IMG/VR virus record: IMGVR_UViG_3300027793_000078
Span: 1-64,000 of that record
Reading direction: 5' to 3' (one strand)
From: a virus
Length of the DNA: 64,000 nucleotides
Under the pieces are notes generated by a model, which ran no database searches, was not told where the DNA came from, and was given only the letters and a program-made list of their open reading frames with translations. This document shows positions 26,461 through 42,938 of the stretch, in pieces. A program made the translations under genes and the position numbers. Each line of letters begins with the position of its first letter. The first letter of the stretch is position 1.

Positions 26461-27891
26461 ATGATTAGTTTAAAAGAGTTATTGATGGAAGGAGCAAAAG
26501 AAAATGCTGCATTGGATTATTTGCAGCATTTGGTACGTAATGGGCCATTCAAAGGAAGAGTTTACCTTGCAGGCGGTGCTGTGCGTGATATGCAACTTGG
26601 TAAAGATCCAAAAGATTTGGATGTTGTTGTTACAGGCGGCATTGATGCTGGTATGGAATTTGCCAAATGGGCAACTCAATACATGAATAATTTCAAGGAA
26701 GGCAGCAATCCTGTGCTGTTTCCTACATATGGTACTGCTAAATTTACATTGAGTGGTATCGTTCATAATGGTATTGATTTGAGTGATGTCGATATTGAAG
26801 CAGTTGCAACCAGAAAAGAAAAATATAGTAGTGGCAGTCGCAAGCCAGAAGTAAGTTCTGGTGATCTTGCCGATGATGTTAATCGTAGAGATTTTACTGT
26901 TAATAGTCTGTTGAAAGACTTGACTAATGGTGAAATTTTGGATTTGACTGGATTGGGTAAACAAGATATTGCCGCTGGTATTATTCGCACTCCATTGAAT
27001 CCTGATATTATTTTCAGTGAAGATCCTCTTCGTATGTTGAGAGCGGTTCGATTTGCTTTCAAATATGATTGGGATTTGCCATTATTTATGATTCGGGCAT
27101 TGAAGCGCAATTCATCACAATTAAAAAATATTAGCAATGAACGTATTCGTGATGAACTGGATAAAATGCTTGTAACCGGTAGTCCAGATAGAGCAATTAA
27201 ATTGCTACGCATTACAGGATTGTTAAACTATATCATTCCAGAATTTAAAAGTGCATACAAGATGACACAAAATGTTCATCATAAGCATGATGTATTTACA
27301 CATACGTTGGAAGTTCTGAAGAAAACTAAACCTGTGTTGGCTCAACGTTTAATGGCATTGTTTCACGATATTGGCAAAACTGTTACTCGTAGTGTAACTC
27401 CTACAGGTGTTCATTTTTATGGACACGAAGACAGTGGTGCTGATATGGCAAAAGACATTATGAAGCGACTGAAATATCCAAATGAATTGGCTGACGCCGT
27501 TGCTTTGGGTGTTCAAAATCACATGCGCTTAAAGAGCGGCGGCGATGATGCAGTTAAACTGAGCGATAAAGCGTTGCGTAAATTTAAAGTTACTCTTGGC
27601 GATCAATTGGAAAATTTGCTTGATGTAATGCATGCAGATAATATTGCACATAGCGAAGCAAGCAGCATGCCAAATCAAATTGAAAATGTTAGAAAGCGTT
27701 TGGCAGCATTGCAAATGCCGACTGAAAAACCAAATTTACCTATCAATGGCAACGATTTGATTGCTTTGGGCTTGAAACCGGGTCCACAATTTGCGAAGAT
27801 TATGAGTGCAGTGACTGATGCTTGGTATGAAAACCCAAATATAAATCGTCAACAGGCACTTGAAATTGCTCGAAAAATTGTAAATTTATGA
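26461..27891 (+). CDS. cca: CCA-adding tRNA nucleotidyltransferase with HD domain
   Basis: GGAVRD, DLDVV, RRDFTVN, EDPLRMLRAVRF, SNERIRDE, HDIGK motifs. Confidence 0.92.
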   Translation: MISLKELLMEGAKENAALDYLQHLVRNGPFKGRVYLAGGAVRDMQLGKDPKDLDVVVTGGIDAGMEFAKWATQYMNNFKEGSNPVLFPTYGTAKFTLSGIVHNGIDLSDVDIEAVATRKEKYSSGSRKPEVSSGDLADDVNRRDFTVNSLLKDLTNGEILDLTGLGKQDIAAGIIRTPLNPDIIFSEDPLRMLRAVRFAFKYDWDLPLFMIRALKRNSSQLKNISNERIRDELDKMLVTGSPDRAIKLLRITGLLNYIIPEFKSAYKMTQNVHHKHDVFTHTLEVLKKTKPVLAQRLMALFHDIGKTVTRSVTPTGVHFYGHEDSGADMAKDIMKRLKYPNELADAVALGVQNHMRLKSGGDDAVKLSDKALRKFKVTLGDQLENLLDVMHADNIAHSEASSMPNQIENVRKRLAALQMPTEKPNLPINGNDLIALGLKPGPQFAKIMSAVTDAWYENPNINRQQALEIARKIVNL

Positions 27892-35351: not shown

Positions 35352-35855
35352 ATGAATCATAAAAATGAATATGGTTGCCTCATGGCAATCGTGCCTCCAA
35401 CTCACGGTCCACATATTGTTAAATTTGGTAAAACTGTAATACCTCAAAGTTTATTATACACAAAGCCAGACGATGACAGTTATGGCTATGATAACGAACC
35501 GCATGTAACTGTAAAATTTGGATATGCGCCCGATTTGAATAAGCAAGATTTGGCAACGATTTTACGAGGTATAAAACCTTTTAATATTGTTTTGCATGCA
35601 TTGACACAGTTTAACAACAGTGAATTTGATGTTGTTAAGTTTGATGCGGAAAGTCCCGTATTAAGAGAATTGAGAGCTAGAGCAGACAAATTTCCAAATA
35701 AAGATAAATTTCCAGAATACAAGCCGCACATGACTTTGGCGTATGTAAGACCAAATTCTTTTGGTCACATCAAAGAAAAACTAAATATTAGTGTTCCAAT
35801 TAAACATTTCAAATATAGTGGTGCAGACGGTAGAAAAATATTAATTCATTTGTAA
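35352..35855 (+). CDS. 2H phosphoesterase, Acb1/T4 57B-like
   Basis: EPHVTV and KPHMTLAY HxT motifs; YGCLM start; ~167 aa single domain. Confidence 0.7.
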   Translation: MNHKNEYGCLMAIVPPTHGPHIVKFGKTVIPQSLLYTKPDDDSYGYDNEPHVTVKFGYAPDLNKQDLATILRGIKPFNIVLHALTQFNNSEFDVVKFDAESPVLRELRARADKFPNKDKFPEYKPHMTLAYVRPNSFGHIKEKLNISVPIKHFKYSGADGRKILIHL

Positions 35856-40562: not shown

Positions 40563-40686
40563 GAGATACATTCAGCAATACAAATAAATAATAAACAGCT
40601 ATACGTGGTGTTCGAATCCCACCTTGCCCACTAGACGGGCAAGTAGCCGAGCGGTTCAGGCGGCTGTCAAATAAAAACGTATCTCG
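40563..40686 (+). ncRNA. CAGCAA-stem RNA member 2 containing a circularly permuted tRNA
   Basis: GAGATAC-ATT-CAGCAA...GTATCTC-G; 3' half 40595-40630 precedes 5' half 40637-40667. Confidence 0.85.
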
Positions 40687-40928: not shown

Positions 40929-40981
40929 AAGACACTTGCAGCAAACATATTTTTTATTGAAAAAAACCAAACGGTGTCTTG
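40929..40981 (+). ncRNA. CAGCAA-stem RNA member 3 (minimal)
   Basis: AAGACAC-TTG-CAGCAA...GTGTCTT-G. Confidence 0.7.
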
Positions 40982-41264
40982 TTTTTGATTTTAGATTAGA
41001 GTTGGAGTTATCGTAGAAATCTGTGGAAGTTGTAATACACAGAGAGTATATTTAAGGAGCCGCTTGACAAACAGAAGGACAACGAGTATGTTTGTTCTAA
41101 GATAACTACACATCCCCTCGGTCAAAGGATATAATCTAATATGTTGGTTGTTCAACGGCAGTCCGTTATTTAAAAAACATCAATGGATGTGCCCGTGTTA
41201 AAACGGGATGAACGGTGAGAGATAGCAGTCCTACTGAAGGCGAAGACTGTAACAATCAATATTA

Positions 41265-41800: not shown

Positions 41801-41995
41801 ATTTTTAATTCTGTGTATAGATAAACGGTATTGCTATTTGGTAATGACTGACAACAGTATATTATGAGTAAAATCGTAATAATTAGTAATACTAATACCT
41901 ACGGGGATATCAGACTGAACAAACAAATGAGTTTTTGAATTTGGGTTGATATTACAAATCTATTGATTGCGGGTCACAGAAATAAAACTCTTTAA

Positions 41996-42135
41996 AAGAT
42001 ACATACAGCAACAAATAAAGCAATCCAAACTGCATATACAGCGTGAAAATCCTGTTCCCTCTGCCAATTTTAACAGAGTATTTATAGAGGGATCGTCTAA
42101 CATTTAGGACAGCAGTACGCAAAAAATGTATCTTG
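41996..42135 (+). ncRNA. CAGCAA-stem RNA member 5 containing a circularly permuted tRNA
   Basis: AAGATAC-ATA-CAGCAA...GTATCTT-G; 3' half 42029-42066 (ends GCCA) precedes 5' half 42086-42116. Confidence 0.85.
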
Positions 42136-42141
42136 TTTTTT

Positions 42142-42287
42142 GAGTATACATGAACAGAATGAAAATTGTATGGCGACGAGTCCTGTAGTCATAAGACAAG
42201 ACGTGAGGACAAAGATATTATCTATAGGTAATATACGAAAAACGTAACGAAGTGTCTTTGTGGGTCAACTAATCCCACTGTATACTC
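42142..42287 (+). ncRNA. Unclassified structured RNA with T-arm-like 3' hairpin
   Basis: GAGTATACA/TGTATACTC closure; GTGGG-TCAACTAAT-CCCAC immediately 5' of the closing strand. Confidence 0.5.
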
Positions 42288-42938
42288 TATATTTTATATG
42301 AATATTATTCCAACTGATGTATTGAACAAAGGTTACAATGCATATGTTCATGTTGAAGGATGGAATAAAGCTGCCGTGTTTGTTTTTGTTGGATTTGAAA
42401 ACGGCCAAAAGAAATTAAAAACACCAAAAACAAATCGTATATTGTATACAAAAAATAATCTAATATATACAAAGCGATATCAATAAATGACAAAATCAAA
42501 ATATCATCCAGAACTTACAATTGCGCCGTGTCCAAATTGTAATTCTACAAATGTAGAAGAATCTGGTGATGATTTTGATGGTGATGTTAGTTGTAATGAT
42601 TGTACTTTAATTACTCCAATTTTTCTTGGAACCAAAAATGCAATAAATGCATGGAACAATAGAAAATATATGGATCAATGGTTCTTTTTAGATCCTGAAT
42701 TACATCAGATGGATTATCAGATTTAAACATTCAAAGTGGATGTTCAATGAAAGCATATTGTTTATGAACAGCAACATGCATGTGTAGGTGAGAAGTCAGA
42801 TATTTGTCGGTGGCAAACTCACATTAAACAAAGTCGAAACCGTCTTAGTCTTCGATATGCATTAGAAAATTAGTTTTCGTTTTGAACAGGAGACACCATT
42901 TTTGAATGTTCTTTTTCAAAATATTGATATTTATATGT

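What the first reader, a model, noticed from the sequence alone, without database searches (positions are those of the whole stretch)
42029..42116. Circularly permuted tRNA #2 with internal GCCA and the same T-stem bulge as #1
Seen: ACTGC, ATAT, ACAG(C)G-TGAAAAT-CCTGT, TCCCTCT-GCCA, 19-nt linker, AGAGGGA, TC, GTC-TAACATTTAG-GAC, A, GCAGT. The sequence is unrelated to #1, yet topology is identical and the same single base bulges before the last T-stem pair, which argues for selection rather than accident. The retained GCCA means RNase P plus 3' trimming could yield a two-piece, chargeable RNA, as in permuted two-piece tmRNAs (established precedent). A1-U72, G73 and the upstream TCCAAA suggest a Trp-like origin (inference).
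Basis: partly seen in the sequence, partly recalled or inferred. Interest (0 to 1): 0.8.

Follow-up and report, generated by a model that had tools for sequence, protein, structure and literature searches.

The report
Phage Y-RNA-like tRNA mimic with CCA
A small RNA gene in the tRNA cluster of a large freshwater phage folds like a tRNA turned inside out on a conserved stem "handle". It most likely partners a Ro60-shaped phage protein rather than decoding codons, and it may be cut open to expose a tRNA-like CCA end.

Summary
Window 42029-42116 folds as the described four-way junction, and three related phage contigs keep it through four compensatory base-pair changes. GCCA, the T loop and the bulged C do not vary; the 19-nt linker does.

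The element is the cargo of a larger unit, 41996-42134: a 9-bp closing stem plus ACAGCAA. This handle occurs five times in the window. In 78 of 80 unrelated viral loci it lies beside genes of a DUF2828 protein, which I modelled and found to match Ro60 over its full length. A close relative of this phage carries that gene next to a handle hairpin. This scan has noted the same handle-protein pairing before on other phage DNA.

The closest published kind is YrlA, the Y RNA described as a circularly permuted tRNA. Formal YrlA membership fails: no Rfam hit, no GNCGAA motif and no TROVE gene.

What is unusual here is an acceptor loop built like this phage's own tRNA flanks (AT | stem | G-CCA-ATTTT). 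That suggests RNase P cutting and a two-piece RNA, as in Mycobacterium smegmatis YrlA. Cutting, charging and a Trp origin are untested. The RNA libraries show the unit but give no ends at 42066/42086.

The parts
41996..42004 (+). Handle, 5' strand of the 9-bp closing stem (AAGATACAT)
   Evidence: Pairs with 42126-42134 in the fold. Invariant in four orthologues. The same kind of stem covaries among the five window copies.
42005..42011 (+). ACAGCAA motif of the handle
   Evidence: AGAYRC-NNN-CAGCAA occurs five times on the + strand of the record, four times in relative G001, and never in the reversed control. It is enriched beside DUF2828 genes.
42012..42028 (+). 5' side of the internal loop; its last letters with A42029 read UCCAAA (42024-42029)
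   Evidence: Columns 17-28 vary in 42% of positions; UCCAAA is invariant in four orthologues.
42029..42033 (+). Anticodon-stem-like helix, upstream strand (ACTGC)
   Evidence: Pairs with 42112-42116. The inner pair runs C-G, U-G, U-A among orthologues.
42038..42055 (+). T arm: ACAG(C)G, loop TGAAAAT, CCTGT, with bulged C42042
   Evidence: First pair changes A-U to G-C in three orthologues. Loop and bulge are invariant.
42056..42062 (+). Acceptor stem, 3' strand (TCCCTCT)
   Evidence: 7 bp with 42086-42092. Two pairs change on both sides.
42063..42066 (+). G73-like base plus encoded CCA
   Evidence: Invariant in four orthologues. Same N73-CCA-ATTT context as 9 of 11 tRNA genes of the window.
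42067..42085 (+). Linker: a tRNA-type 3' trailer (ATTTT...) joined to a 5' leader (...TTTAT)
   Evidence: 53% of columns vary and length is 16-19 nt. T at -1 as in 11 of 11 tRNA genes, A at -2 as in 10 of 11.
42086..42092 (+). Acceptor stem, 5' strand (AGAGGGA); predicted RNase P site between 42085 and 42086
   Evidence: Pairing is shown. Cleavage is inferred and from M. smegmatis YrlA.
42095..42110 (+). D arm (GTC, loop TAACATTTAG, GAC), without the usual GG
   Evidence: One variable column in four orthologues.
42112..42116 (+). Anticodon-stem-like helix, downstream strand (GCAGT)
42117..42125 (+). 3' side of the internal loop (ACGCAAAAA)
   Evidence: One variable column of ten.
42126..42134 (+). 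Handle, 3' strand of the closing stem (ATGTATCTT)
   Evidence: Invariant; pairs with 41996-42004.
42135..42144 (+). G plus U-run tail, up to the place where RNA-library contigs join back
   Evidence: G follows the stem in all window copies. Joints at 42144 in runs X15 and X16.

Best explanation
Window 41996-42134 encodes a non-coding RNA of the Y-RNA type, made with the tRNAs of the island.

Its base is a handle: a 9-bp closing stem followed by ACAGCAA. I infer that the handle is the docking site of a phage Ro60-shaped protein (DUF2828 plus DUF7788).

Its top is a tRNA-derived body (T arm, 7-bp acceptor stem, D arm). The anticodon stem of this body runs into the handle instead of ending in an anticodon loop, so the RNA does not decode.

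Unlike its sister elements, whose acceptor stems are sealed by loops of 3-7 nt, this one carries G-CCA plus a tRNA-type trailer and leader in that loop. I infer that RNase P cuts before A42086 and that 3' trimming stops at CCA (42066). The result would be a nicked two-piece RNA held together by three helices and ending in a free tRNA-like CCA.

By analogy with Y RNAs, which tether Ro60 to other factors, the particle would present a tRNA acceptor end to a tRNA-binding enzyme or to a host tRNA-directed factor.

Shown: structure, conservation, family membership, gene-RNA association, presence in RNA libraries. Inferred: protein binding, cutting, function.
For: Structure:
- The fold is the energy minimum.
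- Four compensatory pairs in three helices; 99.1% of cells paired, against 38-48% when slid.
- Indels of 1 and 3 nt among orthologues break every overlapping reading frame.

Family:
- The handle pattern occurs 5 times in the record and 4 times in relative G001, none in the reversed control.
- The model built from #2 finds the sister tRNA-like elements at 32-61 bits.
- Those sisters give full-length but sub-threshold YrlA matches of 18.9-27.9 bits.
- Un-permuted #1 is called a tRNA by ARAGORN.

Partner protein:
- G001, which shares gene order with this record at about 70% protein identity, has DUF2828/DUF7788 pieces starting about 70 nt downstream of a handle hairpin.
- In 80 viral loci around DUF2828 genes, handle-like elements number 282 on the gene strand. 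The opposite strand has 57, and the two strands of the reversed control together have 58.
- 78 of 80 loci have at least one handle.
- A model of a full-length homologue 85% identical to G001's C-terminal piece (pLDDT 81.7) has Ro60/Rsr chains as its 13 best PDB matches. These are full-length alignments with E about 1e-6 and TM up to 0.58.

Acceptor end:
- GCCA is invariant and the linker is 53% variable.
- Flanks equal the island's tRNA consensus.
- Among 11 handle elements with a T arm and a 7-bp acceptor stem, only this orthologous group has a long NCCA loop.
- Precedent: M. smegmatis YrlA is cut by RNase P and gains CCA (PMC4201824).

RNA: the stretch is in four freshwater metatranscriptome runs at uneven depth.
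Against: - No Rfam match for #2 itself.
- The T loop (UGAAAAU) and D loop lack the letters that form the tRNA elbow. ARAGORN rejects the un-permuted form.
- No TROVE gene in G000 or G001. No DUF2828 gene in the 78-kb record that holds the window. In G001 the gene is in pieces with in-frame stops.
- The motif is ACAGCAA, not the GNCGAA(N)G or CGAA contacted by known Ro60 proteins.
- RNA-library contigs run unbroken through 42066-42086, so at least some molecules keep the linker.
- Only four orthologues, mean column identity 91%, effectively two lineages.
- No binding, cleavage or charging datum exists.
Confidence: 0.65

Rival explanations
1. It is a true circularly permuted tRNA gene (Trp-like). 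The flanks held by the handle are removed, position 32 (42116) is joined to U33 (42024) to give the loop UUCCAAA, and the acceptor loop is opened. The product is a decoding tRNA.
For: - The 3' half lies upstream of the 5' half, with CCA, trailer and leader between them.
- A1-U72, G73 and UCCAAA are kept in four orthologues. I recall these as tRNA-Trp identity elements in E. coli; I did not check this here.
- No tRNA-Trp among the window's tRNAs.
- Relative G001 has an Rnl2-like RNA ligase (26.3 bits).
- The literature raises this possibility for YrlA.
Against: - ARAGORN rejects the un-permuted form, and the elbow letters are missing.
- No bulge-helix-bulge motif; no splicing endonuclease is known in bacteria.
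- No 42116-to-42024 joint in four RNA runs (contigs can miss rare forms).
- Sister elements on the same handle have sealed acceptor loops and no anticodon remnant.
Confidence: 0.05
2. It is a structured spacer that only guides folding or cutting of the polycistronic tRNA transcript, or protects it. It has no partner protein and no function of its own after processing.
For: - It lies between tRNA genes among other end-paired blocks.
- Joints in RNA-library contigs fall at block boundaries 41802/3, 41987/8, 42144 and 42283-8.
- The neighbouring block 41803-41995 is simply absent in L062.
Against: A spacer role does not explain three things:
- the invariant ACAGCAA and its linkage to DUF2828 genes in 78 of 80 loci;
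- the tRNA-shaped cargo on several handles;
- the invariant GCCA.
Confidence: 0.15
3. It is a decaying remnant of two tandem tRNA copies (the 3' part of one, the spacer, the 5' part of the next), or a chance fold.
For: - The linker looks like an ordinary inter-tRNA spacer.
- T and D loops are degenerate.
- The fold z-score is only -2.1.
Against: - Compensatory changes join the two halves: acceptor pairs 62/96 and 65/93, and anticodon-like pair 38/117.
- Expected chance sites are 0.075 per window.
- The element sits exactly inside a conserved handle.
Confidence: 0.03

Closest known systems
YrlA-type bacterial and phage Y RNAs (Rfam RF02553; Chen et al. 2014, PMC4201824; Wang et al. 2018, 10.1101/312249), especially M. 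smegmatis YrlA
   Same: - T arm, acceptor-like stem and D arm in permuted order on a long stem formed by the RNA ends.
- Described in print as resembling circularly permuted tRNAs.
- The M. smegmatis member has a 7-bp acceptor stem, is cut by RNase P and gains CCA.
- Often encoded near tRNAs, and found in phages.
   Different: - No Rfam hit for #2.
- ACAGCAA instead of GNCGAA(N)G.
- No TROVE-family gene found. The associated protein is DUF2828/DUF7788, Ro60-like by predicted fold only.
- CCA and tRNA flanks are encoded rather than added.
- Elbow letters are lost.
Ro60 with Yrl1/Yrl2 of Thermus phage phiLo (PMC12135203; PDB 9KOP, 9L5Y)
   Same: A phage-encoded Ro60-fold ring protein with small stem-closed RNAs encoded beside its gene. 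9KOP and 9L5Y are among the best fold matches of the DUF2828 model.
   Different: The phiLo RNAs carry a CGAA motif and no tRNA-like body. Binding is shown there and not here.
Circularly permuted tRNA genes of Cyanidioschyzon merolae (Soma et al. 2007, as cited in 10.1101/312249)
   Same: The 3' half lies before the 5' half, the acceptor end is initially closed, and it is opened by RNase P or RNase Z.
   Different: Those mature into canonical decoding tRNAs through a bulge-helix-bulge cut and a circular intermediate. Here there is no such motif, and the un-permuted form does not pass as a tRNA.
Two-piece (permuted) tmRNA
   Same: Permuted gene order that gives a two-piece RNA with a CCA end.
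   Different: ARAGORN finds no tmRNA. There is no G3-U70, no tag reading frame and no pseudoknots, and the unit is only about 140 nt.
Class I RNAs of dictyostelid amoebae (Rfam RF01414; PMC7919456)
   Same: A short stem joins the two ends, a conserved motif ending in CAGCAA follows the 5' strand, and the interior is variable.
   Different: Only a sub-threshold match, and only for a sister hairpin (20.7 bits, cut-off 41.5). That family is eukaryotic. No common descent is shown.

Membership tests
YrlA (Rfam RF02553) | T arm, loop-closed acceptor-like stem and D arm, in that order, on a stem formed by the 5' and 3' parts | tested here: met
YrlA (Rfam RF02553) | Score at or above the family's gathering score (69 bits) | tested here: not met
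   No match for 41960-42170 even at E 10. Sister elements reach 18.9, 22.3 and 27.9 bits.
YrlA (Rfam RF02553) | Conserved T-loop and D-loop letters that form the tRNA elbow (UUCGA..., GG) | tested here: not met
   T loop is UGAAAAU and D loop is UAACAUUUAG. ARAGORN rejects the un-permuted form, while #1 passes.
YrlA (Rfam RF02553) | GNCGAA(N)G motif near the 5' strand, the proposed Rsr contact | tested here: not met
   The conserved motif is ACAGCAA. The definition comes from PMC4201824.
YrlA (Rfam RF02553) | Encoded near a TROVE-family Ro60/Rsr gene | tested here: not met
   PF05731 is absent from G000 and G001. Both records are incomplete. A DUF2828 gene with a predicted Ro60 fold is present in G001.
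YrlA (Rfam RF02553) | Bound by Rsr in cells | not testable with these tools
   Needs immunoprecipitation or a gel-shift assay.
ACAGCAA-handle RNAs beside DUF2828 genes (uncatalogued; noted earlier in this scan) | 7-9 bp closing stem, 2-4 nt, CAGCAA, variable interior, complementary strand followed by G | tested here: met
ACAGCAA-handle RNAs beside DUF2828 genes (uncatalogued; noted earlier in this scan) | A DUF2828/DUF7788 gene in the same genome, often adjacent | tested here: inconclusive
   Absent from the 78-kb record, which CheckV rates 22% complete. Present in relative G001 about 70 nt downstream of a handle hairpin, but in pieces. By gene order the site would lie about 7-10 kb beyond the end of the record.
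ACAGCAA-handle RNAs beside DUF2828 genes (uncatalogued; noted earlier in this scan) | Handle enriched on the gene strand around DUF2828 genes in unrelated phages | tested here: met
   282 on the gene strand, 57 on the opposite strand, 58 on the two strands of the reversed control. 78 of 80 loci have at least one.
Circularly permuted tRNA genes | The 3' half lies upstream of the 5' half in one transcript | tested here: met
Circularly permuted tRNA genes | After un-permuting, a canonical tRNA with a complete anticodon loop | tested here: not met
   ARAGORN finds nothing, even at its lowered threshold.
Circularly permuted tRNA genes | A circular intermediate that joins the anticodon-loop ends | tested here: inconclusive
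   No 42116-to-42024 joint in four RNA runs. Other back-joints exist at 42144 to 41802. The data are contigs only.
Two-piece tmRNA | tRNA-Ala-like domain with G3-U70, a tag reading frame, detection by ARAGORN | tested here: not met
   ARAGORN reports no tmRNA. Position 3-70 is A-U.
Dictyostelid Class I RNA (RF01414) | Score at or above 41.5 bits | tested here: not met
   20.7 bits for the sister hairpin 40930-40981, and nothing for #2.

The most novel reading that the evidence does not exclude
The RNA is opened by RNase P into a two-piece molecule with a free GCCA end. It keeps the three sets of letters that I recall as tRNA-Trp identity elements (A1-U72, G73, and CCA placed as an anticodon next to the stem). 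It is then aminoacylated, or otherwise handled as a tRNA, while riding on a Ro60-like ring protein. That would be a charged tRNA mimic inside a phage Y-RNA-type particle. A less likely version is that ligation matures it into a real tRNA-Trp.
Probability: 0.1. Interest if true: 0.85.

Novelty: new variant of a known kind. Interest (0 to 1): 0.6.

Why it matters
Y RNAs and Ro60 are known from animals, bacteria and a few phages, but what the tRNA-like part of bacterial Y RNAs does is still open.

This phage lineage carries several such RNAs on one handle. The handle travels with a Ro60-shaped protein that Pfam lists only as a domain of unknown function; five papers in the searchable library mention the domain, none about phages or RNA. 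One of these RNAs looks built to be cut open into a CCA-ended acceptor mimic.

That gives a concrete, cheap test system: one protein, short RNAs, RNase P. It could show whether Ro60-type particles display tRNA ends, and to what. It also bears on why large phages surround their tRNA genes with RNA-repair enzymes.

Tried and rejected
- BLAST of the region against 50,697 phage records, near and distant modes: no match.
- Rfam on 41960-42170 at E 10: only a chance snoRNA match.
- TROVE, RtcB and T4 Rnl1 families in G000 and G001: none.
- Relatives sought in IMG/VR. The 225-aa neighbour and the Lar-like alignment gave nothing. The 796-aa and 944-aa proteins gave only G001.
- 16-mer scan of IMG/VR: 40 hits, of which two are real.
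- Metagenome scan: one real orthologue, L062.
- A relaxed descriptor (6-7 bp acceptor, no anticodon-like stem) in the 80 DUF2828 loci was as frequent in controls, so it says nothing.
- Sequence search of the DUF2828 piece against PDB chains: no Ro60. Only the fold comparison showed it.
- Rfam on the split DUF2828 gene of G001: no intron family.
- Burroughs and Aravind 2016 could not be read.
- RNA-library contigs show no ends or joints at 42066/42086. Contigs cannot show absence, so this is neither support nor refutation.
- Run X10 passes straight through the region at even depth, which may be precursor RNA or DNA.

Full report
WHAT IS THERE

The window is part of a 78,477-base IMG/VR virus record that CheckV rates 22% complete. 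The + strand between 38.8 and 44.6 kb holds ten of its eleven tRNA genes.

The 88 nt fold into the described four-way junction as the minimum-energy structure: -20.9 kcal/mol, z -2.1, 2 of 200 shuffles as good. In a wider context the junction sits on a 9-bp helix, 41996-42004 with 42126-42134.

A descriptor for the topology finds only 40595-40667 and 42029-42116 in the 64 kb on both strands. The descriptor asks for a T arm with an optional one-base bulge, an adjoining 7-bp stem closed by a loop, two bases, a D arm, one base and a closing 5-bp stem. Forty dinucleotide shuffles gave 0.075 sites on average. I wrote the descriptor after seeing the two sites, so it measures rarity and is not an independent test.

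CONSERVATION

I found three orthologues:
- G001 (IMGVR_UViG_3300032237_001169, 108.8 kb). It shares gene order with the window's record at about 70% protein identity.
- G002 (L027, 13 kb).
- Metagenome contig L062.

On the four-sequence alignment, 99.1% of 115 pair cells are standard pairs. Four pairs change on both sides:
- the inner pair of the anticodon-like stem (C-G, U-G, U-A);
- the first T-stem pair (A-U to G-C);
- acceptor pairs 2 and 5.

With partners slid by 1-3 columns, 38-48% of cells pair and no pair changes on both sides.

Variable columns by segment:
- linker: 53%
- 5' internal loop: 42%
- T arm: 11%, both of them compensated
- D arm: 6%
- GCCA, UCCAAA and the 3' handle strand: 0%

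Indels of one and three bases rule out the short overlapping reading frames. The sample is small, mean column identity 91% and effectively two lineages. Every change inside a helix is compensated except one in G002.

THE ELEMENT IS THE CARGO OF A LARGER FAMILY

The closing stem is followed by ACAGCAA. The pattern AGAYRC-NNN-CAGCAA occurs five times on the + strand of the record and four times in G001, and never in the reversed control. The stems covary.

The interiors differ:
- two window copies are plain hairpins of about 50 nt;
- one has another, unrelated interior;
- two carry tRNA-shaped bodies.

A covariance model built only from the four #2 orthologues finds the other tRNA-shaped members at 60.9, 54.4, 39.1, 37.7 and 32 bits. 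So #1 and #2 are related, not independent.

The #1-type members give full-length but sub-threshold matches to Rfam YrlA: 18.9, 22.3 and 27.9 bits against a gathering score of 69. When un-permuted in a script, #1 is called a tRNA by ARAGORN with any filler loop. #2 is not, even at a lowered threshold.

The #1-type members carry four different 7-bp acceptor stems among the relatives. All are sealed by loops of 6-7 nt that begin with A.

THE PROBABLE PARTNER

Earlier notes of this scan on other phage DNA linked ACAGCAA handles to DUF2828 proteins said to fold like Ro60. I tested this here.

- TROVE (PF05731) is absent from G000 and G001.
- DUF2828 (PF11443) is absent from the 78-kb record but present in G001. 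Its pieces start about 70 nt downstream of the handle hairpin 77490-77538.
- The G001 pieces are a 133-aa N-terminal piece, a 283-aa frame without a Pfam hit, and a 372-aa piece with DUF2828 and DUF7788.
- Intact 502-aa versions, 85-87% identical to G001's C-terminal piece, exist on contigs of up to 319 kb.
- In 80 IMG/VR loci around DUF2828 genes of 41-56% identity, handle-like elements number 282 on the gene strand. The opposite strand has 57, and the two strands of the reversed control together have 58.
- 78 of the 80 loci have at least one handle, often just before or just after the gene.
- An AlphaFold model of P0008 with 30 aligned homologues (pLDDT 81.7, pTM 0.77) has Ro60/Rsr chains as its 13 best Foldseek matches in the PDB. 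They include D. radiodurans, Xenopus, human and Thermus phage phiLo. The alignments are full-length, with E about 1e-6 and TM 0.34-0.58. Below them come von Willebrand A domains only.

Binding of protein to handle is inferred, not shown. The motif differs from the GNCGAA(N)G or CGAA contacted by known Ro60 proteins.

WHAT IS SPECIAL ABOUT #2

All eleven tRNA genes of the window have T at -1, and ten have A at -2. Nine encode N73-CCA followed by A/T-rich sequence, mostly ATTT. The acceptor loop of #2 reads G-CCA-ATTTT...TTTAT before A42086. That is a tRNA 3' trailer joined to a 5' leader. These features hold in all four orthologues, although the middle of the linker diverges.

Among 11 handle elements with a T arm and a 7-bp acceptor stem across 84 sources, only this orthologous group has a long loop starting NCCA. 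The others are sealed by 3-7 nt.

[quoted passage not shown] M. smegmatis YrlA has seven acceptor pairs, is cut by RNase P in vitro, and is cut and given CCA in vivo (PMC4201824; 10.1101/312249).

I therefore predict cutting at 42085/42086 and trimming to 42066. The result would be a two-piece RNA held together by the acceptor, anticodon-like and handle helices.

The T loop keeps U54 and A58 but has lost 55-56, and the D loop has lost GG. One distant family member, L095, shows a similar pair: T loop TTAAAAT and a D loop without GG. An alternative elbow is possible, but this is inference only.

RNA EVIDENCE

Six metatranscriptome runs hold part of the stretch. I laid four of them as Logan contigs.

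All four cover #2. Depth is uneven between neighbouring contigs of one run, for example 61, 9 and 6.7 in X14. This fits RNA better than contaminating DNA but does not prove transcription.

Contigs pass unbroken through the linker, so uncut molecules exist or DNA is present.

Two runs from different studies join 42144 back to 41802/3. The first place is the end of the U-run after the handle. The second is 2-3 nt after the CCA of tRNA-Leu. A third run joins 42283-8 back to 41987-92, inside an ACTCT repeat. All four places are boundaries of end-paired blocks.

Three readings are open:
- circular RNAs;
- end-to-end template switching in the library;
- other strains with a different block order or a tandem copy. 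Block 41803-41995 is absent in L062.

I could not lay DNA runs to decide between them.

VERDICT

The permuted-tRNA reading is right as topology. The element is best filed as a Y-RNA-like tRNA mimic: it works like YrlA but fails the formal YrlA tests. It belongs to an uncatalogued handle-RNA family tied to a Ro60-shaped DUF2828 protein.

Its encoded CCA with tRNA flanks makes it a distinct variant and gives a sharp, testable prediction.

A two-piece tmRNA is excluded (A3-U70). A decoding permuted tRNA-Trp is unlikely but not excluded.

The searchable paper library holds five papers that mention DUF2828, none about phages or RNA. Iyer et al. 2021 note TROVE proteins with tRNA-like partners in some jumbo phages (PMC7824862).

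Noticed in passing
window 41802-42144 and 41987-42288: RNA-library contigs join 42144 back to 41802/3 (runs X15 and X16) and 42283-8 back to 41987-92 (run X14). All four places are boundaries of end-paired blocks. The cause may be circular RNA, template switching, or a different block order in other strains.
   Followed up: partly
L065:1414-3563 and L064:1312-2430 (G001 77607-80060): The DUF2828/DUF7788 gene of the relative is in pieces: 133 aa, a 283-aa frame without a Pfam hit, and 372 aa. The N-terminal match runs on through three stop codons. Short 370-372 aa forms recur in relatives at 76-100% identity, and intact 502-aa forms also exist. No Rfam intron was found. A NUMOD3 endonuclease-like frame follows.
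   Followed up: partly
window 40930-40981: The plain handle hairpin aligns end to end with Rfam Class I RNA of Dictyostelium (stem, CUUnCAGCAA, A/U-rich interior) at 20.7 bits, below the cut-off of 41.5.
   Followed up: partly
window 40563-40685; L055:16916-17032; L027:7244-7357 (-); L062:219-337 and 437-559: Handle elements with canonical tRNA-like bodies carry four different 7-bp acceptor stems (CTTGCCC, CTTCCCC, TCTGTCC, TTGACAT). All are sealed by 6-7 nt loops that begin with A. The cargo appears to be exchanged or to evolve quickly on a constant handle.
   Followed up: partly
window 41803-41995: An end-paired, ORF-free block (z -2.6) lies between tRNA-Leu and the handle. It is absent in L062, where the handle starts 5 nt after the tRNA's CCA. 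In G001 an HNH-like gene lies between the two.
   Followed up: partly
L095:6682-6796: A distant handle RNA beside a DUF2828 gene has T loop TTAAAAT and a D loop without GG, like #2. This may be a recurrent alternative tRNA elbow.
   Followed up: no
window 41214-41259: Three RNA runs hold a variant that matches this stretch with three mismatches and then continues with other sequence containing GGCTGGGGTTTCAGCAAAC. This is a CAGCAA motif behind a different stem, probably from a related phage.
   Followed up: no
window 26461-27891 and 35352-35855; G001 101671-102105: RNA-end repair genes lie around the island: a CCA-adding enzyme with an HD domain and a LigT/2H phosphoesterase in the window, and an Rnl2-like RNA ligase in the relative (26.3 bits, just under the cut-off).
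   Followed up: partly
L062:150-215: Between tRNA-Phe and the first handle element, a hairpin (TGGCCGA ... TCGGCCA) ends in CCA followed by ATTTCA, like the tRNA 3' ends. This may be a minihelix-type tRNA mimic.
   Followed up: no
window 42487-42726: A Lar-like zinc-ribbon gene (PF14354) directly follows #2 in L062 and G001. In the window a 350-nt block lies between them.
   Followed up: partly
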